Shown: positions 14,894 to 29,362 of the stretch, in pieces
Layout of the letters: the number at the start of each line of letters is the position of its first letter
How positions within the stretch are numbered: the stretch's first letter is position 1
Origin: a virus
Direction: 5' to 3' (one strand)
DNA: 64,000 nt
Virus record (IMG/VR): IMGVR_UViG_3300049434_000014
Location: 89,456-153,455 of that record
Notes under the pieces: model-generated
What the model saw: only the letters and a program-made list of their open reading frames with translations
Told to the model about the DNA's origin: nothing
Databases searched by the model: none
Program-made: the position numbers and the translations under genes

Positions 14894-15457
14894 ATGAGTG
14901 AACCTGTGCTTGATACACGTGATTACAATGCTGAGATGAATGAGCTTATTTCAGAGAAGATTCCTGCTGATGGGGATTTCATTCCTTCGCTGGCTGCGTG
15001 GAGCATCGTCTCAGCTCTCACCGAGACTGATCCTGAGCTTCTCGACGGTTGGCTGCGTTTGCACGCGAAGTCGTTTCTTACGGAGTTGATGCGTGCTCAG
15101 CTTCGTTCTCATCGTGCTCGGGTTCGGTCTAGTGCGAAGGCGACGGCGTTTTCGTCTGCTGCTAAGCGCTTTGAGAAAAACGGTGACCTCGCCGAGCTGG
15201 GCGGGTGGATGAAGATTCGGTATGTAGTCGATGATCAGAGTACGCAGCGTTGTCTTGGCGATATGGATCGTAATGATCTGAATTTCGTTGCTTCACGGTA
15301 TAGTCGGACGGCTCAGACTCTGTTGCTCGAGGAGGCGTTTCATCGCGCGCTAGCATCGCGGGTGGGTAGTCTGAAGGTCAGTGAGGTTTTCACTGAGGAG
15401 CAGATTAGCGCGATGTATCGTAATCTGAGTGGCAATACGCATACTGCTACTGCCTGA
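14894..15457 (+). CDS. Hypothetical helical protein, stop codon overlaps first GAC of array 3
   Basis: 187 aa ORF with gagga SD. Confidence 0.7.
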   Translation: MSEPVLDTRDYNAEMNELISEKIPADGDFIPSLAAWSIVSALTETDPELLDGWLRLHAKSFLTELMRAQLRSHRARVRSSAKATAFSSAAKRFEKNGDLAELGGWMKIRYVVDDQSTQRCLGDMDRNDLNFVASRYSRTAQTLLLEEAFHRALASRVGSLKVSEVFTEEQISAMYRNLSGNTHTATA

Positions 15458-15793
15458 CTTACCAAGACCAGTCACGGCTCATCCGTTCGATACCGTTCCG
15501 ACATGTCTAGCCTCATCCCGTCAAGTCTTGCCATTGCCGACACGTCTAAGCACGTCTATTCACGTCCGACATTCCAAGGCCAGTCGCGTCGCGTTGGGCC
15601 ATATCGCTTCCTTTCCGACTACGCACTTCTGCCCATAACTATTCACGGCGACTTCCCGTATCAGGCCAAGTCGAGCCGTTTCGACTACACACTTCTCGCC
15701 GCGCCTAGTCGGGACCGACTTCACAAGCCGGATCGTGACAGGTCAGTTCGAGACCGACTGGGCTATCCGAATCGTTTCTCATCCGACAATGTC
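15456..15793 (+). repeat. Pentamer-phased GAC-(NNNYC)n array 3 (9 complete units)
   Basis: gac atgtc tagcc tcatc ccgtc aagtc ttgcc attgc c | gac acgtc taagc acgtc tattc acgtc c | ... | gac ttccc gtatc aggcc aagtc gagcc gtttc. Confidence 0.92.
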
Positions 15794-15804
15794 AGGAGTG
15801 TCTA

Positions 15805-16119
15805 GTGACTATCTCTGCTCAAGAGATTCTTAACTTGCCGATGCAGTCTAACGATGCGCAGGCAGCTACAGTTGGAGAATACTTGGTTGCACTTGTTAGA
15901 GAAGTGTGGAGATTAAATGAGAATTTTAGCGGTAAGAGACCGTTTGGGAACAGTGGATGGCATTACGAGCTTTACGCACCGTTGGTGAGAGCAGGTTTAG
16001 TTGACGGGCTCACTAATGAGGATGGAGAGATTGAAGTTACTGATGGACGCAGGGCTGATGCGTTGATTGATTTGGCCATCTTGGGGCTCTGGAAGCCCAG
16101 CGCGGAGAGCACGCAATAG
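15805..16119 (+). CDS. Hypothetical phage protein
   Basis: aggag SD; FSGKRPFGNSGW motif. Confidence 0.7.
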   Translation: MTISAQEILNLPMQSNDAQAATVGEYLVALVREVWRLNENFSGKRPFGNSGWHYELYAPLVRAGLVDGLTNEDGEIEVTDGRRADALIDLAILGLWKPSAESTQ

Positions 16120-16204
16120 TCACGGATCGCAACCACCTCAGCTCCCATCCGTTATCTGGGTGCTGAGGTGGTTTTGCGTTGTCCCCTATTTTTGAGGAGA
16201 GACT

Positions 16205-16639
16205 GTGCTTGCTTACCGTAGGACGGTGCTCGCGGTGGTGAGTACTGCGACGCTTGGTGTGTCTTCTCTGCTGGCCGCTCCTGCCTTCGCTGATGACCCA
16301 TCGCTGCCTGGTGTGCCCAATCCCCCGTCGTGCACGAACCCGCTGCCGCTGCGGGGCAGTGAGGTCCCGATCTGTGTGACGGTCAATAACCCTCCCGACA
16401 ATGAGGGTGGCGTGAAGGCTCGCGTTCGGGTCGGAGACGTCTTGTGTGTGAAGGTCGACGCTCTTACCGAGCGTAAGACTGCTGACGCTCGCGTGATTCT
16501 GCCGTGCCCGATTCACTATGTTCCTGTGCCAGTTCCGGTGGAGGTGACTCCCGAGCCTGCTCCTGTCGAGACTCCTGAGCCCGCTCCTGTTGCACAGGCT
16601 CCTGAGATTGTACAGGCTCATTTGCCTGTTACGAATTAA
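16205..16639 (+). CDS. Secreted protein with Pro/Glu-rich tail
   Basis: Signal peptide ending AFA-DD; four Cys; EPAPVETPEPAP repeats; gaggag SD. Confidence 0.7.
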   Translation: MLAYRRTVLAVVSTATLGVSSLLAAPAFADDPSLPGVPNPPSCTNPLPLRGSEVPICVTVNNPPDNEGGVKARVRVGDVLCVKVDALTERKTADARVILPCPIHYVPVPVPVEVTPEPAPVETPEPAPVAQAPEIVQAHLPVTN

Positions 16640-16652
16640 TTCGTTTTCCACT

Positions 16653-16692
16653 GAAAGGCCCGTCCCTTTGCGCTAAGAGGGACGGGCCTTTC
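16653..16692 (+). terminator. Intrinsic terminator hairpin
   Basis: gaaaggcccgtccctt-tgcgct-aagagggacgggcctttc. Confidence 0.75.
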
Positions 16693-16772
16693 GCCTGGGT
16701 AGTACTCGGTATGGGATTCCGGTCTGTGGATACCCCATGTCTCGATGAAAAATACATCCAGGAGGAATACTC

Positions 16773-17531
16773 GTGACGGTTTCTACTTCGGCTCCTGTCA
16801 GTGTGTTTGCAAAGTACCGTGATGTCACGTGGCCTTATAGGTATGAGGGCACTCTGCACATCGATACCATTGCTGGAGGCATTCCTTCTGACGAGAAGGT
16901 TGCTGAGGCATGGTTACGTACGAAGTTGGAGAACAAAGACGACCTCATTCGTGAGGCCGTTGCTGAGACGATGGCCGCTCGCGGTGTCGGTAAGGAAGAG
17001 GCGGCACAGATCGTCGCTTCGATGAAGCACTTCACTGGTTTTAAGCGTGACAGCAATGGGCTATACATCGAAGGTCGTCAGCTGAAAGCGGCGATCAAGG
17101 AAGCGGCGATGATTGCTGTCGCCGCTGAGCGGATTCCCCTGCGCGGGTGGGGTGTTACCTCGAAGTACCTTAAGGGTTTCGTCGCGGAACACATCATGGT
17201 TGTCGATGACATCTTGTACTTGAAGGTGGACGGCACTCCTGCAAAGGAAGCTACTGGAATCACTCAGCAGTTCGTTCACACCCAGTACGGTTCGGCTCCG
17301 CACTACAAGGAGTTCGTGTCCGGTGCTACCATTGATTTCACGGTGATTACGGACTTCTTCTTCACCGAGGAGCATTGGATGCACATCTGGGCTACGGGTG
17401 AGCAGGAAGGGATCGGTGCCTCGCGCTCTGGCGGGTTCGGTCGCTACGTGGTTACTCGGTGGAATTTGGTGACTTCCCCACCAAAGAAGAAGGCTCCTGC
17501 CAAGGAGAAGGAAGCGGCTGCAGTTAGGTAG
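16773..17531 (+). CDS. Solitary RAMP-superfamily (Cas7/Csm3-like) RNA-binding protein
   Basis: aggagg SD; LYIEGRQLKAAIKEA matches the RAMP IPGSSxKGxxR motif; C-terminal G-rich loop GIGASRSGGFGRY; N-terminal strand YEGTLHI. Confidence 0.8.
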   Translation: MTVSTSAPVSVFAKYRDVTWPYRYEGTLHIDTIAGGIPSDEKVAEAWLRTKLENKDDLIREAVAETMAARGVGKEEAAQIVASMKHFTGFKRDSNGLYIEGRQLKAAIKEAAMIAVAAERIPLRGWGVTSKYLKGFVAEHIMVVDDILYLKVDGTPAKEATGITQQFVHTQYGSAPHYKEFVSGATIDFTVITDFFFTEEHWMHIWATGEQEGIGASRSGGFGRYVVTRWNLVTSPPKKKAPAKEKEAAAVR

Positions 17532-17564
17532 TGGTCTGGCGGCGCGTCTGGGTACGATGGCAGA

Positions 17565-17862
17565 GACAAGCCAAGCCGCATCCAGACGCGCCACCGCGCT
17601 TCGACTATTCGTGTCAGATCTATCCATCTCCTTCGACCAGCCGTGTCGCGATCATGTCGCTTCCTAGTCCTTTCGACCTGTCGCTACGTTGCGCTTCTTG
17701 GCATATCCACACCGACCATGCGCGCCGCGACCTTACAAATCCTCTCGCCCTGACGAGTCTCCACGCGGCTCTACAATACTCATCATTCTGACAAGTCTTC
17801 ACGCGGCTCTACAATACTCATCATTCTGACTAGCCAAACCGGTACATACCATTTCGCACGAC
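17565..17862 (+). repeat. Pentamer-phased GAC-(NNNYC)n array 4 (8 units), directly downstream of the RAMP gene
   Basis: gac aagcc aagcc gcatc cagac gcgcc accgc gcttc | gac tattc gtgtc agatc tatcc atctc cttc | ... | gac ctgtc gctac gttgc gcttc ttggc atatc cacac c. Confidence 0.92.
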
Positions 17863-17871
17863 TGAGGACTA

Positions 17872-18993
17872 ATGTCTACTGAGCCTTGGACTTTACGATA
17901 CCGACCACGCAAGTTTTCTGATGTTACTGGTCAGAAGGCGGTTCGGTTGGTGCTGCAGCGAATGGTCGTCACGGGTGACGTCCGCTCAGCTTTGCTGTTT
18001 CATGGTTCACACGGTTCAGGTAAGACTTCCATGGCACGGATACTTGCTGCCGCTTTGAATTGCGAAGCTGAGGATCCCGCTGCTCGCCCGTGCGGTGTGT
18101 GTGCGATTTGCGATTCGACAGCGCATGGCCGGTCTGCTGATGTCACGGAAATCGATGCTGCATCGTCCGGGCTCGCTGCGGATATGCGCGCGTTGCGCGA
18201 GACGGTGCGTTTCGCTGCTCAGGCTCGCTATCGTGTGGTGATCCTCGATGAGTGTCACGCTATGTCGCCTACGGGCTTTCAGACTTTGTTGAAGACTTTA
18301 GAGGAGCCTCCTGCCAACACGGTGATCATTCTCGTGACTACTGTCCTCGACAAGGTTCCGGACACGATCGTGTCTCGGTGTTTGTCGTTGGAGTTTCGTC
18401 GGTTGACGGAAGAGCAGATCGCTGGTCGACTGGCTCAGATCTCTGAGGCTGAGGGCCTTGAGCTGGCCCCTGCGCTTGCCAGGTCGGTTGCTGCCCGCTC
18501 GAGGGGGATCGCCCGTGACGCTGTCTCTCTGCTTGAGCAATGTGCTCTTGTGCGTGTACGGACTCCTGAGCAGCTGGCGGTTTTACTAGGCGACGATGAC
18601 CATGGGATCGCGATCCTGCGTGCGCTGGTCGGTCCTCCTGGTCATATGTCGCCAGGAGCCAATCACCCCTCAGATTTTTCTGTGGCATTCGGGTGTATTG
18701 AGAGCGCTCTGGCCACCTTGCCCTCACCGGGTGAGGTGGTGGCCGCGCTCGTGCGGACGCTGAAGCGGTTGCTGATTTTGACCTCTGGCGGGGATGGATC
18801 TTTCATGCATCCTCCTAGTACTGCGGGCGAAGTGGCTCTAGCTGGGCTTTTGGACTCAGCACGGTGTGTTACCGCGATGAGAGTAGTTTGGGAGTATTAT
18901 TCTAAAGTCGCACCGGTTGCTGATGCTTATGCAGCTATGGATCTTTTGGTAACGCTTTTGAGTCAGGCTCTTAAGTCGTCTTCTCGTACGTAG
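17872..18993 (+). CDS. dnaX: DNA polymerase III gamma/tau clamp-loader subunit
   Basis: RYRPRKFSDVTGQ, Walker A GSHGSGKTS, PCGVC Zn site, ILDECH, LLKTLEEPP, TIVSRC. Confidence 0.93.
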   Translation: MSTEPWTLRYRPRKFSDVTGQKAVRLVLQRMVVTGDVRSALLFHGSHGSGKTSMARILAAALNCEAEDPAARPCGVCAICDSTAHGRSADVTEIDAASSGLAADMRALRETVRFAAQARYRVVILDECHAMSPTGFQTLLKTLEEPPANTVIILVTTVLDKVPDTIVSRCLSLEFRRLTEEQIAGRLAQISEAEGLELAPALARSVAARSRGIARDAVSLLEQCALVRVRTPEQLAVLLGDDDHGIAILRALVGPPGHMSPGANHPSDFSVAFGCIESALATLPSPGEVVAALVRTLKRLLILTSGGDGSFMHPPSTAGEVALAGLLDSARCVTAMRVVWEYYSKVAPVADAYAAMDLLVTLLSQALKSSSRT

Positions 18994-26780: not shown

Positions 26781-29362
26781 CCGCACCTGCTACGTCGGTA
26801 GGGTCGCTGGCGTCTTTGCTGTCGTTGGTTGATGACTCAGCCGCACGCAATGTAGCGACTGAAGACCAACTCATTGCTGAAGTAGACAATCTTTACGCTC
26901 AGCGGTTGGTTGCCTATCTTGCGTCTTTGCAGAGCCAGCCTCAGGCACCGGAGGAGGGTGATCTTCATCCATTCTTGGATGCGGCATTGCTCGCTGCAGT
27001 GGTGCTTTTGCTGCGACGCGCGTTCCGGGCTGGAGTTGTAGAGGGCCTTAATTTCGGCGGGGAGAATTTAAGCAAAGTCGGGATCACTTTAGATCCAAGC
27101 TTAGTAAAGATCGATAACGCTTTTAGTGACTCTGTCGTTACGGACTTCTTGCAGGGTCAAGTTAATCAGGCTTCGAGTTGGGGCAGCAAAGATCCACAGG
27201 TGCTGGCTGCGACGCTGTCTCAGCGTGCTGATCTTGGTGTGTTGACGGCCTTTCATGGTGGACGTAATGCTGCGTCGGAGGCGTCGTTTGCGCAGGCACC
27301 GGGTCAGGTACATAAGTTGTGGGTCGCTCGTTTCGATTTAGAGACTGCACCTTGTAGTTTGTGTGTTCGTCTACACGGCATGCATGTTCCGTTAGCTGAT
27401 AATTTCCACGTTCATGATGATGAGCCTGGGCCTTATCTCGGGACGCTGTCTCGTCCTCCGAGGCATCCTCGTTGTCGGTGCAGTGTGGTGTTGTACATGC
27501 CTACGGAGATGAAGACCGATTCAGGTCCGGCTCCGTTGTCGATGGTGCAGTATGCCGATCAGGTGTTGCGGATAATCGGTGCGGAGCGCCACGATTTCAT
27601 CGCAGCCTCAGTAGTCCGGGTTGAGGGATATACGCGTGTTGTAGGTGGAAAGACCGAGCAGGTAAGTGGTTACTTTTATGACATTAAGACGGGGTTAAAG
27701 GTTCCGTCGTCTCAGGTTCCTGGCAATAAAGCACCGAAGGTGTCTTTGCAGAAGGCTCGCGCGATGGAGCAGAAAGCTAAGTCAGCGGGCGTTGGTAAAA
27801 CTTCTGGTGGTCCTGGACAGGCTGCTGCTGTTTGGCCTAAAGGTACGTATCACATTAATATGCCTGATGGTTCTGTGACTCAGGTGATTGTTAGTGATGA
27901 TGGTTCTTCTCGAGCTACGTCTAATGGTCAGACGGAGAATGCCGATCCTGCTCAGACACATCAGTTTATGTCTTACTGGCAAGAGCATCTTCAGCAGGTT
28001 GACAATGCTGATTCTGGACTTCACGATGTGCAGCATCCTGAGCATAATATCGGTGGTGTCTCAGTCACGTCTGACCATGTTAAAGAAGCTATCAGCATTC
28101 TGAAAAACGAGCCATCGACTTCTGTTAAGGCTCCACTAAAGATTGCAGATCACCCTCTCGCGTCTGCGGATCTGCGCGGGTTTGCGACCGAGCATGCAGG
28201 CACGCCACAGCATTACTCGAAGCTTAAGCAAGGTGTGATCGACGCGCTTCAGGCAAAGCTGAAGGGTAAGGACGGAGCTCAGCCAAATGCCGGAAAGCCT
28301 GAGGCTCCTGGTGCCCCGACGCCTCCTGATGCACCGTCTGCGCCGAGCGCTCCCGTGTCGGATAAGCAGAAGGCTCCTGACAAAAAGTCGGTTGCTAACC
28401 CACCTAGCGCTCCAAACAAGAGTGCGACTCCTCCTGCTGTGCCAGCAGATCAGGCAAAGACTTGGAAAGACCATCTGGAGAATGCGCGTGTTGCGTTCAA
28501 GGTCTCTCCACAACCTGGCGATCACGGGTCGGGGATTGCCGCCGCTCAGCAACGGGTCGCTACTACGAGACACAAGTATTACGTTCGTAGTGATCAGGGG
28601 AATACTCAGATCAGTATGAAGCCGCTTCCCGTGACGGGAAATGGACATGATTTGCTAGTGCATTCCAACGGGTCGGTGTATTCACGTTCGTTAGACGGTA
28701 GTGGTGCTGAGCAGTTGCATCCTATGTCGCCTGATGAGGTTTCGTCTTTGACGAGTCCTCATTTTCAGTCTTCTGACAAGGTGTCTCTTGATCGTGCGTT
28801 GTCTAATCCTCGTTCGATTAAAGATAATAAGCTTGACGGGTTAATGCAGGAAGCATTGACCAGTAACAATATGGATGCGTTTGATAAGTTGGCTGCTGAG
28901 GCTGATCGTCGCAGCGCGTCTGAGAAGCGTTCGTCTCAGCAGGAAGAGCAGCGTGCTGCGCAGCTAGAGAAGCTTCTGATGGAGGGTAAGAACGAGTCTG
29001 ACGCCATTGAGAAGGTATACGGCGTCTCGGGTGAAGGACAGAAACGAAAGTTAGCAATTACTTCATTGCGATCTGATGGTTACACGGGAGTTAACCTTTC
29101 GGAGCTGGCTCGTAAGGCTTTCCGAGACGATGTGTATAGCAGATATATTGAAGCTGAGAATTCGATGCAAGGACATATGCTTTCGAAGGAAGGTGAGGCT
29201 AAGAATATATCTCCAGTGAAGTTGTTTACTGGCTCAGAGGCTACGGCTATGAAGTACGCGTCTCCTGAGTTGATTGATTACTGGGGAATTCACGGCCGTC
29301 CTTCGTTCGATGAATGGTTAAATGATTTTATGGGTGGCTTCGGTAGTAGTGGAGGTGCCTGA
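26777..29362 (+). CDS. MuF-like head morphogenesis protein with long C-terminal extension
   Basis: KLWVA..CSLC..LHG..PPRHPRCRC motif after the portal. Confidence 0.75.
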   Translation: MTAPATSVGSLASLLSLVDDSAARNVATEDQLIAEVDNLYAQRLVAYLASLQSQPQAPEEGDLHPFLDAALLAAVVLLLRRAFRAGVVEGLNFGGENLSKVGITLDPSLVKIDNAFSDSVVTDFLQGQVNQASSWGSKDPQVLAATLSQRADLGVLTAFHGGRNAASEASFAQAPGQVHKLWVARFDLETAPCSLCVRLHGMHVPLADNFHVHDDEPGPYLGTLSRPPRHPRCRCSVVLYMPTEMKTDSGPAPLSMVQYADQVLRIIGAERHDFIAASVVRVEGYTRVVGGKTEQVSGYFYDIKTGLKVPSSQVPGNKAPKVSLQKARAMEQKAKSAGVGKTSGGPGQAAAVWPKGTYHINMPDGSVTQVIVSDDGSSRATSNGQTENADPAQTHQFMSYWQEHLQQVDNADSGLHDVQHPEHNIGGVSVTSDHVKEAISILKNEPSTSVKAPLKIADHPLASADLRGFATEHAGTPQHYSKLKQGVIDALQAKLKGKDGAQPNAGKPEAPGAPTPPDAPSAPSAPVSDKQKAPDKKSVANPPSAPNKSATPPAVPADQAKTWKDHLENARVAFKVSPQPGDHGSGIAAAQQRVATTRHKYYVRSDQGNTQISMKPLPVTGNGHDLLVHSNGSVYSRSLDGSGAEQLHPMSPDEVSSLTSPHFQSSDKVSLDRALSNPRSIKDNKLDGLMQEALTSNNMDAFDKLAAEADRRSASEKRSSQQEEQRAAQLEKLLMEGKNESDAIEKVYGVSGEGQKRKLAITSLRSDGYTGVNLSELARKAFRDDVYSRYIEAENSMQGHMLSKEGEAKNISPVKLFTGSEATAMKYASPELIDYWGIHGRPSFDEWLNDFMGGFGSSGGA

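What the first reader, a model, noticed from the sequence alone, without database searches (positions are those of the whole stretch)
14894..15793. Array 3 is fused to the stop codon of an unknown 187-aa gene, a possible accessory component
Seen: the TGA of 14894-15457 overlaps the first GAC of a very regular 9-unit array with 5-9 pentamers per unit, about 1 kb upstream of the RAMP gene. Unit lengths vary in steps of 5 nt, as expected if each pentamer binds one subunit. Inference: the gene may be a co-inherited partner (effector, loader or regulator).
Basis: partly seen in the sequence, partly recalled or inferred. Interest (0 to 1): 0.7.

Follow-up and report, generated by a model that had tools for sequence, protein, structure and literature searches.

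The report
Helper gene of phage VIPR-like system
The unknown 187-aa gene is real and always travels with a lone Cas7-like protein gene and five-base-periodic guide arrays in dozens of phages, so it is the dedicated helper gene of a divergent form of the VIPR RNA-guided silencing systems first described in 2026.

Summary
ORF 14894-15457 ends in a TGA that overlaps the first GAC of a nine-unit array (15456-15784). Each unit is GAC+NN followed by xxC+NN pentamers, with C at position 3 in 67 of 68 pentamers.

The inference of a co-inherited partner is strongly supported:
- The protein (p187) belongs to a large unannotated family: 638 clusters, about 170-190 aa, no Pfam or PDB fold match.
- Among 72 distinct homologue loci, none with enough downstream sequence lacks the partner elements.
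- 57 of these loci have a Cas7-fold Vipr-like gene downstream on the same strand. In 41 an array starts within 60 nt of the p187 stop and fills the gap.
- 11 more loci run as array to the contig end.
- The two proteins co-diverge (Mantel r 0.75).
- In this phage two moron-like genes with terminators were inserted between array 3 and the Vipr-like gene. A syntenic 146-kb relative lacks them.

p187 is unrelated to SUSP1 Vap1, and its biochemical role is unresolved. I read it as the vap-type accessory of a non-canonical (DYC/NN) VIPR clade.

The parts
14894..15457 (+). p187 gene: 187-aa accessory (vap-type) candidate of the VIPR-like module
   Evidence: ORF and translation. The family has 638 clusters at E<=1e-3. 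The AF2 model has pLDDT 93.6 and is helical with one beta hairpin. The gene always lies upstream of the Vipr-like gene or an array. It is single-copy in the 153-kb genome.
15456..15784 (+). Array 3: nine guide-like units, each GAC+NN followed by xxC+NN pentamers
   Evidence: Unit table, logo and shuffle test. The predicted RNA is unstructured, z +0.79. No self-target was found under skip 0-2.
15805..16119 (+). Inserted 104-aa gene (phrog_15618, function unknown); not part of the conserved module
   Evidence: PHROG hit at 1.5e-15. The gene is absent from the p187-to-Vipr gap of the syntenic relative L013 and of the other loci.
16124..16184 (+). Hairpin followed by UUUUGCGUU: intrinsic-terminator-like element after the 104-aa gene
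   Evidence: Fold energy -36.9 kcal/mol, z -7.4.
16205..16639 (+). Inserted 144-aa gene, secreted-looking and Pro-rich; not part of the conserved module
   Evidence: ORF. The sequence shows a signal-peptide-like N-terminus. No family hit. Absent from L013.
16647..16700 (+). 18-bp perfect hairpin after the 144-aa gene (terminator-like)
   Evidence: Fold energy -38 kcal/mol, z -5.8.
16773..17531 (+). Vipr-like gene: stand-alone 252-aa protein with a Cas7/Csm3 fold
   Evidence: AF2 pLDDT 86.4. The top Foldseek PDB hits are type VII Cas7 and type III Csm3, best E 1.6e-7, with 148 hits at <=1e-3. Weak collinear hhalign match to SUSP1 Vipr, E 0.0019.
17546..17860 (+). Array 4: C-phased array directly after the Vipr-like gene
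   Evidence: C-rich, G-poor stretch. Detector segments at 17567-17630 and 17677-17855. Sequence.

Best explanation
ORF 14894-15457 encodes the dedicated accessory protein, in the sense of a 'vap' gene, of a divergent VIPR-type RNA-guided module. The ancestral layout of this module is p187 gene, then guide array, then Cas7-fold Vipr-like gene, all on one strand.

Shown:
- The three elements are co-inherited across dozens of otherwise unrelated phage contigs.
- The array begins at or within about 35 nt of the p187 stop.
- Where there is no array in between, the two genes abut or overlap.
- The two proteins co-diverge.
- The array RNA is predicted to be unstructured.
- The Vipr-like protein has a Cas7 fold.

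Inferred:
- p187, array 3 and (ancestrally) the Vipr-like gene are transcribed together on the + strand.
- The array RNA is a single-stranded track on which one Vipr-like subunit binds each xxC+NN pentamer, with the NN dinucleotides spelling a gapped DNA target, as in published VIPR.
- p187 has no catalytic motif and no known fold. It probably acts as a non-enzymatic cofactor that the filament needs in vivo, as Vap1 is needed by phage SUSP1.

My split within the partner reading:
- about 40%: it acts with the loaded filament at the DNA target.
- about 25%: it helps to assemble, phase or process the tail-less guide units at their GAC anchors.
- about 20%: it only regulates the module.

In this phage two moron-like genes with their own terminators have since been inserted between array 3 and the Vipr-like gene.
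For: Forward test:
- In 9 of 9 informative IMG/VR loci the Vipr-like gene lies directly downstream. None of 13 other window genes is conserved there.
- De-duplicated over viral and metagenome loci there are 72 loci: 41 p187-array-Vipr-like, 11 adjacent, 5 other-then-Vipr-like, 11 array to contig end, 4 uninformative, 0 without.
- Genome contigs L124 and L125 show the same layout.

Reverse test: 52 of 63 Vipr-like loci with upstream sequence have p187. Five more have a very divergent collinear ORF in the same slot.

Spacing:
- Arrays start -12 to +39 nt from the stop in most loci, often as TGAC.
- Where the genes are adjacent, the gap is -4 to +84 nt. In Mae-JY09 the stop and start overlap.

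Other evidence:
- Mantel r 0.75, p 0.001, n=51.
- Relative L013 shares synteny on both sides but has a compact 342-nt array gap.
- Vipr-like fold matches Cas7/Csm3.
- Array logo and statistics.
- Array RNA is unstructured.

Literature:
- VIPR loci are vipr plus vap plus pentamer vrRNAs, and vap families differ by type (10.64898/2026.04.26.720920).
- Deleting vap1 gives the same phenotype as deleting vipr (10.64898/2026.10.15.759431).
- Non-canonical triplets such as GAC/NN and CAC/NN are reported (10.64898/2026.10.21.760802).
Against: - There is no direct evidence of expression, of a p187-Vipr or p187-RNA contact, or of any target.
- p187 is unrelated to SUSP1 Vap1 (hhalign E 0.42) and lies upstream of vipr, not downstream.
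- It is slightly acidic (pI 5.8; family median 6.1), which is unusual for a nucleic-acid binder, although residues 61-95 are basic.
- No fold match supports DNA binding.
- Six Vipr-like loci with arrays or upstream sequence have no detectable p187 (L044, L045, L052, L067, L081, L082), so it is not strictly required by every member of the clade.
- Distant arrays in this genome (2.7-4.9 kb and 55.8-61.5 kb) have no p187 next to them.
- No fused p187-RAMP protein was found (weak evidence).
Confidence: 0.8

Rival explanations
1. p187 is a guide-RNA biogenesis or loading factor. It recognises the GAC anchors, or the start of the array next to its own stop codon, and it nucleates, phases or processes Vipr-like assembly on tail-less, closely packed units, possibly acting in cis while it is being translated.
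For: - The array starts at or within about 35 nt of the p187 stop in most loci, often sharing TGAC.
- Units have no 3' tail, ribozyme or hairpin that could define their boundaries.
- Unit lengths fall in the 5k+3 and 5k+4 classes, which implies precise phasing at each GAC.
- p187 has a basic central helix.
Against: - In 11 loci and in Mae-JY09 the arrays lie after the Vipr-like gene, not after p187.
- GAC anchors persist in p187-less loci L044 and L067.
- Large arrays in this genome lie 10-45 kb away from p187.
- No nuclease motif or RNA-binding fold was found.
- TGA followed by C is common in such genomes, so the exact overlap may be chance.
Confidence: 0.2
2. p187 is only a transcriptional regulator of the module, such as an autorepressor at the head of the operon like the Aca proteins of anti-CRISPR operons, and is not part of the effector machinery.
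For: - It is the first gene of the module in all loci.
- It is a small helical protein with helix 85-96, then a conserved Gly97-Asp98 turn, then helix 99-106 and a beta hairpin, which resembles a winged helix-turn-helix. This is read from secondary structure only.
- The vap genes of VIPR types II, VI and VII are predicted DNA binders (10.64898/2026.04.26.720920).
Against: - In this phage p187 has no upstream intergenic region. Its start overlaps the preceding ORF, so there is no obvious operator or promoter of its own.
- No HTH or winged-helix match was found by Pfam or by fold search.
- Translational coupling to the Vipr-like gene in the adjacent layouts suggests a stoichiometric partner.
Confidence: 0.15
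3. p187 is a passenger gene that happens to sit in a conserved phage region, with no functional tie to the arrays or to the Vipr-like protein.
For: Any two neighbouring genes of related phages will co-occur and co-diverge to some degree, so part of the Mantel correlation could be shared ancestry.
Against: - Flanking genes are not conserved in 12 of 12 distant loci, while the pair is.
- The pair recurs in contigs with 28-62% Vipr-like identity, in a phage annotated as infecting a cyanobacterium, and in contigs from an Actinomadura genome and a MAG labelled Burkholderiaceae.
- There are no solitary occurrences.
- The genes overlap where there is no array between them.
Confidence: 0.04
4. p187 is a self-protection or antagonist protein, an inhibitor or immunity factor that restrains Vipr-like filaments (its own or those of rival phages), not a helper.
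For: - It is slightly acidic with an acidic N-terminal third, as many nucleic-acid mimics and inhibitors are.
- It evolves faster than the Vipr-like protein (mean p-distance 0.68 against 0.47).
- Published VIPR work describes conflict between VIPR-bearing elements (10.64898/2026.10.15.759431).
Against: - An inhibitor would be expected to occur also in phages without the system, and none was found.
- It is strictly co-oriented with, and often translationally coupled to, the Vipr-like gene.
Confidence: 0.05

Closest known systems
VIPR systems (Vipr + vap + vrRNA), bioRxiv 10.64898/2026.04.26.720920, 10.64898/2026.04.26.720927, 10.64898/2026.10.15.759431
   Same: - A phage-borne, minimal two-gene locus.
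- A lone RAMP protein with a Cas7-like fold.
- Flanking non-coding arrays of pentamers with a fixed triplet and a variable dinucleotide.
- One small accessory gene tightly linked to the RAMP gene.
- No self-targets, as the preprint reports for its own systems.
   Different: - The fixed triplet is D-Y-C with only the C invariant, not GGY.
- Units are 29-49 nt, anchored on GAC, have no 3' tail or pseudoknot, and are packed with a 0-1 nt spacer.
- The genome holds well over 100 units, against 4 in SUSP1.
- The accessory gene lies upstream of vipr.
- The Vipr-like protein is only marginally similar in sequence to SUSP1 Vipr (E 0.0019).
Vap1 of Escherichia phage SUSP1 (ALH47068.1; type II VIPR)
   Same: - A small protein (146 aa against 187 aa) encoded next to vipr in the same operon.
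- In SUSP1 it is required for VIPR function during natural infection, which is the role I infer for p187 by analogy.
   Different: - No detectable sequence relationship (hhalign E 0.42).
- The gene order is reversed: vipr then vap1 in SUSP1, p187 then vipr here.
- I could not establish whether p187 equals one of the preprint's vap2-6, because its supplementary data are not held.
Non-canonical VIPR-like arrays from the Evo-PIN survey (10.64898/2026.10.21.760802; motifs such as GAC/NN and CAC/NN)
   Same: Period-5 arrays whose fixed triplet ends in C, next to a protein with a Vipr-like fold.
   Different: That paper describes arrays of about 10 repeats and, in the text I read, names no accessory family. 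I could not check whether its clusters include this clade.
Class 1 CRISPR-Cas backbone (Csm3/Cmr4, type VII Cas7) on crRNA
   Same: The fold of the RAMP protein, and the idea of one subunit per fixed-length RNA segment.
   Different: - No CRISPR repeats.
- No other cas genes were detected among the four module-region proteins scanned. PADLOC gave only a chance-level hit.
- The register is 5 nt, not 6 nt.
- The system is encoded by a phage.

Membership tests
VIPR system | Stand-alone RAMP (Vipr) protein with an RRM core, G-loop and Cas7-like fold, outside a CRISPR locus | tested here: met
   The P0002 model (pLDDT 86.4) matches type VII Cas7 and Csm3 chains, best E 1.6e-7, with 148 hits at <=1e-3. 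It has a conserved C-terminal G-rich motif, GxGASRSxGxGxY. No cas genes were detected among the four module-region proteins scanned.
VIPR system | Sequence homology of the RAMP protein to a characterised Vipr (SUSP1) | tested here: inconclusive
   hhalign of A3 against SUSP1 ALH47069 gives E 0.0019 and probability 14%. The match is collinear over 121 columns and includes the G-loop.
VIPR system | Arrays of tandem pentamers with a fixed trinucleotide alternating with a variable NN (canonical GGY/NN; published alternatives NNNGG, YNNNG, NNNNG, GAC/NN, CAC/NN) | tested here: met
   Position 3 is C in 67 of 68 pentamers, and positions 4-5 use all 16 dinucleotides. The triplet is D-Y-C, not GGY, so the feature is met only in the non-canonical sense.
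VIPR system | A linked accessory (vap) gene next to vipr | tested here: met
   p187 lies directly upstream on the same strand in all 57 loci that have enough sequence.
VIPR system | Arrays are transcribed and the RNAs are bound by Vipr | not testable with these tools
Sense-strand transcription is inferred from the operon layout and from the + strand terminator at 16124-16184.
VIPR system | The NN code matches natural dsDNA targets under the 1-nt skip rule | tested here: inconclusive
   No match above shuffled controls was found in the phage's own 153-kb genome or in about 1.1 Mb of related loci searched on both strands. The host and its mobile elements are unknown.
Vap1 (type II VIPR accessory) | Sequence homology to SUSP1 Vap1 | tested here: not met
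   hhalign of A2 (75 sequences) against ALH47068 gives E 0.42 over 12 columns.
Vap1 (type II VIPR accessory) | Gene located directly downstream of vipr | tested here: not met
   SUSP1 has vipr at 28474-29061 and vap1 at 28031-28471 on the minus strand. p187 is upstream of the Vipr-like gene in every locus.
CRISPR-Cas (class 1) | CRISPR array of identical 25-40 nt direct repeats separated by spacers | tested here: not met
   TRF finds no such repeat at 15456-15784. The units share only the GAC anchor and the C phase.
CRISPR-Cas (class 1) | Adaptation and other cas genes (cas1, cas2, large subunit, Cas5/Cas6) nearby | tested here: not met
   Pfam, NCBIfam and PADLOC scans of the neighbouring proteins give none. 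The only hit is a chance-level Cas5_IIId match at E 0.032.

The most novel reading that the evidence does not exclude
p187 founds a new class of VIPR accessory protein with no known fold that works on the guide RNA and not on the target DNA. Made right next to the emerging array RNA, it would nucleate or phase Vipr-like assembly at the GAC anchors, or direct cleavage there. That would explain how tail-less, ribozyme-less units packed with a 0-1 nt spacer are turned into discrete guides, and why the arrays so often begin at its stop codon.
Probability: 0.17. Interest if true: 0.75.

Novelty: new variant of a known kind. Interest (0 to 1): 0.55.

Why it matters
VIPR was described only in 2026. 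Its accessory proteins are its least understood part, even though deleting vap1 abolishes function in SUSP1.

This analysis contributes:
- A large unannotated protein family (638 clusters at 50% identity) with no match in Pfam or NCBIfam and no clear structural match in the PDB. It is the constant companion of a Cas7-fold protein and of non-canonical C-phased guide arrays in soil phages.
- A conserved module grammar: p187, then array, then vipr.
- A cultured phage that carries the module, Microcystis phage Mae-JY09, where it could be tested.

If p187 acts on guide biogenesis or filament phasing, it would reveal how tail-less VIPR arrays are read. If it acts at the target, it is a new kind of partner for a programmable DNA-binding filament.

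Tried and rejected
Function by homology:
- Pfam, PHROGs, NCBIfam and PADLOC on P0001 gave nothing.
- Pfam on all 75 family members gave only scattered chance hits.
- PHROGs gave phrog_4604, function unknown, for 8 of 75 members.
- A PDB profile search gave only MatP at E 0.0098, which I did not trust.
- Foldseek against PDB gave nothing below E 1.
- VIA-align wide gave a best Z of 5.7, for a C-terminal helical hairpin only. The VIA second look gave a best Z of 4.7.
- BFVD's best hit was an unnamed 172-aa viral protein, E 1.7e-3, TM 0.5.
- ESM Atlas gave no usable hit.
- The winged-helix idea rests on secondary structure alone.

Wider searches:
- tblastn of P0001 against 50,697 GenBank phages found no match.
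- A search for fused p187-RAMP proteins found none.
The first genome-contig scan found nothing.

Targets:
- Searches with skip 0-2 on the phage's own genome and skip 1 on related loci found nothing above controls.
- I did not scan the public collections with unit patterns, because 14-18 specified bases would give chance matches at that scale.

Rejected readings:
- The C-rich stretch is not coding. The 100-aa ORF at 15503-15805 lies inside the array.
- It is not a Rho-site artefact alone. That would not give a strict 5-nt phase shared with dozens of loci next to a Cas7-fold gene.

Full report
**Setting.** The window is the last 64 kb of a single-contig 153,455-bp phage genome. It carries a clamp loader, an endolysin and other phage genes. 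Several stretches are C-rich and G-poor on the + strand: about 2.7-3.2 kb, 4.4-4.9 kb, 15.4-15.8 kb, 17.5-17.9 kb and 55.8-61.5 kb. The finding concerns the third of these and the ORF in front of it.

**Observation.** ORF 14894-15457 is open and encodes 187 aa.
- Its ATG overlaps the stop of the preceding ORF, and a GAGGA lies 7-8 nt upstream.
- Its TGA (15455-15457) shares G and A with the first GAC (15456-15458).
- Splitting the downstream 329 nt at GAC gives nine units of 44, 39, 29, 49, 33, 33, 34, 39 and 29 nt.
- Written in fives, every unit reads GAC+NN, then xxC+NN repeated, ending in xxC or xxC plus one base.
- C occupies position 3 in 67 of 68 pentamers.
- Position 1 prefers G, T or A, and position 2 prefers T or C.
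- Positions 4-5 use all 16 dinucleotides.
- A detector that asks for six consecutive C at 5-nt spacing covers 258 of 329 nt, against a mean of 8 (maximum 72) in 1000 shuffles.
- In the whole window it fires only at the known arrays, and never on the G strand.
- Unit lengths fall in two classes, 5k+4 (seven units) and 5k+3 (two units). The same two classes dominate anchor spacings in the window and in related loci.
- The array RNA is predicted to be unstructured, z +0.79.

**What the system is.** Earlier notes of this scan pointed to VIPR, so I read the papers.
- VIPR loci hold a lone RAMP gene (vipr), an accessory gene (vap) and vrRNAs.
- The vrRNAs are made of GGY/NN pentamers whose NN bases spell a dsDNA target with a 1-nt skip.
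- Seven types differ in vap family and array architecture. These include 'staggered' arrays and alternative motifs (10.64898/2026.04.26.720920).
- Vap1 is required in natural SUSP1 infection (10.64898/2026.10.15.759431).
- Non-canonical triplets such as GAC/NN and CAC/NN have been reported (10.64898/2026.10.21.760802).

I tested the RAMP claim myself.
- A 46-sequence alignment of the 252-aa protein at 16773-17531 gave an AF2 model of pLDDT 86.
- Its best PDB matches are type VII Cas7 and type III Csm3, E 1.6e-7, with 148 hits at <=1e-3.
- Profile comparison with SUSP1 Vipr is collinear but weak, E 0.0019.

**Is the 187-aa gene a partner?**

*The family.*
- A word-indexed search found only 8 relatives.
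- An exhaustive phmmer search found 638 clusters at E<=1e-3 and 400 at E<=1e-10. Nearly all of the 150 best hits listed are 165-200 aa.
- It is therefore a real, sizeable and unannotated family.

*Forward test (what lies next to p187 homologues).*
- Twelve IMG/VR loci encoding homologues (28-42% identity) were fetched.
- In all nine with downstream sequence, a Vipr-like gene follows on the same strand. None of 13 other genes of the window is conserved there.
- The detector showed arrays starting 5-50 nt after the p187 stop and filling the gap.
- Thirty metagenome loci and two genome contigs behave the same way.
- De-duplicated, there are 72 loci:
  - 41 are p187-array-Vipr-like.
  - 11 have the two genes adjacent.
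  - 5 reach the Vipr-like gene after a longer gap or an undetected array.
  - 11 run as array to the contig end.
  - 4 are uninformative.
  - None lacks both partner elements.

*Reverse test (what lies next to Vipr-like genes).*
- Seventy Vipr-like loci were fetched with a 9-sequence profile.
- 52 of the 63 with upstream sequence have p187 directly upstream.
- Five more (L070-L074) have a collinear but very divergent ORF in the same slot.
- Six have none.
- One of these six, L067, has an SNF2 helicase before the arrays and a PD-(D/E)XK nuclease after the Vipr-like gene. This recalls the helicase and nuclease vap genes of other VIPR types.

*Further support.*
- Where there is no array between the two genes, they abut or overlap, gap -4 to +84 nt.
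- The two proteins co-diverge: Mantel r 0.75, p 0.001, n=51. p187 evolves faster.
- Both are single-copy in this genome.
- GenBank phages contain no p187 match by tblastn.
- The only GenBank phage with a Vipr-like match is Microcystis phage Mae-JY09. Its upstream overlapping gene is a p187 family member by hhalign (probability 96%, E 1.7e-9). A CGAC-anchored array follows the Vipr-like gene.

**This phage's locus is a derived form.**
- L013, from a 146-kb contig, is syntenic with the window: ATPase, p187, Vipr-like gene, clamp loader and lysin at 51-67% identity.
- In L013 only a 342-nt array lies between p187 and the Vipr-like gene.
- Here, two extra genes sit between array 3 and the Vipr-like gene. 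They encode 104 aa (phrog_15618) and 144 aa (secreted-looking, Pro-rich).
- Each is followed by a strong hairpin, z -7.4 and -5.8. These look like moron insertions.
- The first hairpin is followed by UUUU on the + strand. Together with the absence of any gap between p187, array 3 and the 104-aa gene, this means the array must be present in + strand RNA. An antisense, G-phased transcript is neither needed nor excluded.

**What p187 is.**
- The AF2 model is confident: pLDDT 93.6, eight helices and one beta hairpin.
- It has no convincing relative in the PDB or in BFVD, and no family in Pfam, NCBIfam or PADLOC.
- It is unrelated to SUSP1 Vap1, E 0.42.
- It is mildly acidic overall, with a basic segment at 61-95.
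- Conserved residues include D46-P47, W53, R74, R78, F86, G97-D98, Y136 and F149. None forms a known catalytic motif.
- Helix 85-96, a Gly-Asp turn, helix 99-106 and a hairpin resemble a winged helix-turn-helix. This is read from secondary structure only.

**Mechanism.** The best-supported reading is that p187 is the clade's vap-type accessory.
- It is co-transcribed with the guides and the RAMP gene.
- It is non-enzymatic.
- It is needed alongside the filament.

Whether it acts at the target DNA, in phasing or processing the tail-less units, or only as a regulator cannot be decided here. Arguments for each are given under the best explanation and the rivals. No target of the nine units was found in the phage's own genome or in about 1.1 Mb of related loci searched on both strands. 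The host is unknown.

**Novelty.**
- The kind of system is known (VIPR, 2026), and non-canonical motifs have been published.
- New here are the identification and quantified linkage of this accessory family, the conserved p187-array-vipr grammar with arrays starting at the stop codon, the lack of any known fold, and a cultured phage that carries the module.
- The family may already be one of the preprint's vap2-6. Its supplementary data were not available.

**Limits.**
- No multimer prediction was possible.

Noticed in passing
window 17750-17830: A 38-bp tandem duplication (2.1 copies, 95% matches). Each copy carries a promoter-like CTGAC(A/G)-16 nt-TACAAT on the + strand, at the end of array 4 and just upstream of the clamp-loader gene at 17872.
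   Followed up: partly
window 15805-16700: Two small genes, each followed by a strong hairpin, lie between array 3 and the Vipr-like gene. One encodes 104 aa (phrog_15618); the other encodes 144 aa with a signal-peptide-like start and a Pro-rich tail. The syntenic relative L013 lacks them, so they look like moron insertions that split the module.
   Followed up: yes
L123 (Microcystis phage Mae-JY09, PP395641.1: 37174-38976): A deposited, cultured phage carries the same module: WWT39993 (p187 family) overlaps WWT39994 (Vipr-like), followed by an array of about 300 nt with CGAC anchors at the genome end. All are annotated as hypothetical.
   Followed up: partly
L067:1132-6411: In a locus without p187, an SNF2-family helicase (705 aa) precedes about 1.2 kb of arrays, and a PD-(D/E)XK nuclease (334 aa) follows the Vipr-like gene. 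This may be an alternative accessory set, or it may be ordinary phage replication genes.
   Followed up: partly
L005:10034-10036 (IMGVR_UViG_3300049259_000177): The p187 homologue has an in-frame TGA near codon 37 (VVAD*AIRDL), and the rest of the gene is intact. This could be a sequencing error, a recent pseudogene or read-through.
   Followed up: no
window arrays and loci L001-L125: Spacings between successive CGAC(A/T) anchors are mostly 5k+3 (39 of 74 in the window; 332 of 719 in the loci) and 5k+4 (16; 165). Units therefore end on a fixed triplet with 0 or 1 spacer base before the next GAC. Array 3 is unusual in being mostly 5k+4.
   Followed up: partly
L001, L003, L030, L039, L066 (first ~45 nt after the p187 stop): A subclade shares a conserved leader of about 30 nt (GGCCGAYACACCGCGCCCCRCACCGA-like) between the p187 stop and the first anchor. 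This window has no such leader.
   Followed up: no
L124 (DATCRO010000952.1): A 9.7-kb contig binned into a Burkholderiaceae MAG carries p187-array-Vipr-like with 51% identity to the Streptomyces homologue. It is probably a phage contig placed in the wrong bin.
   Followed up: no
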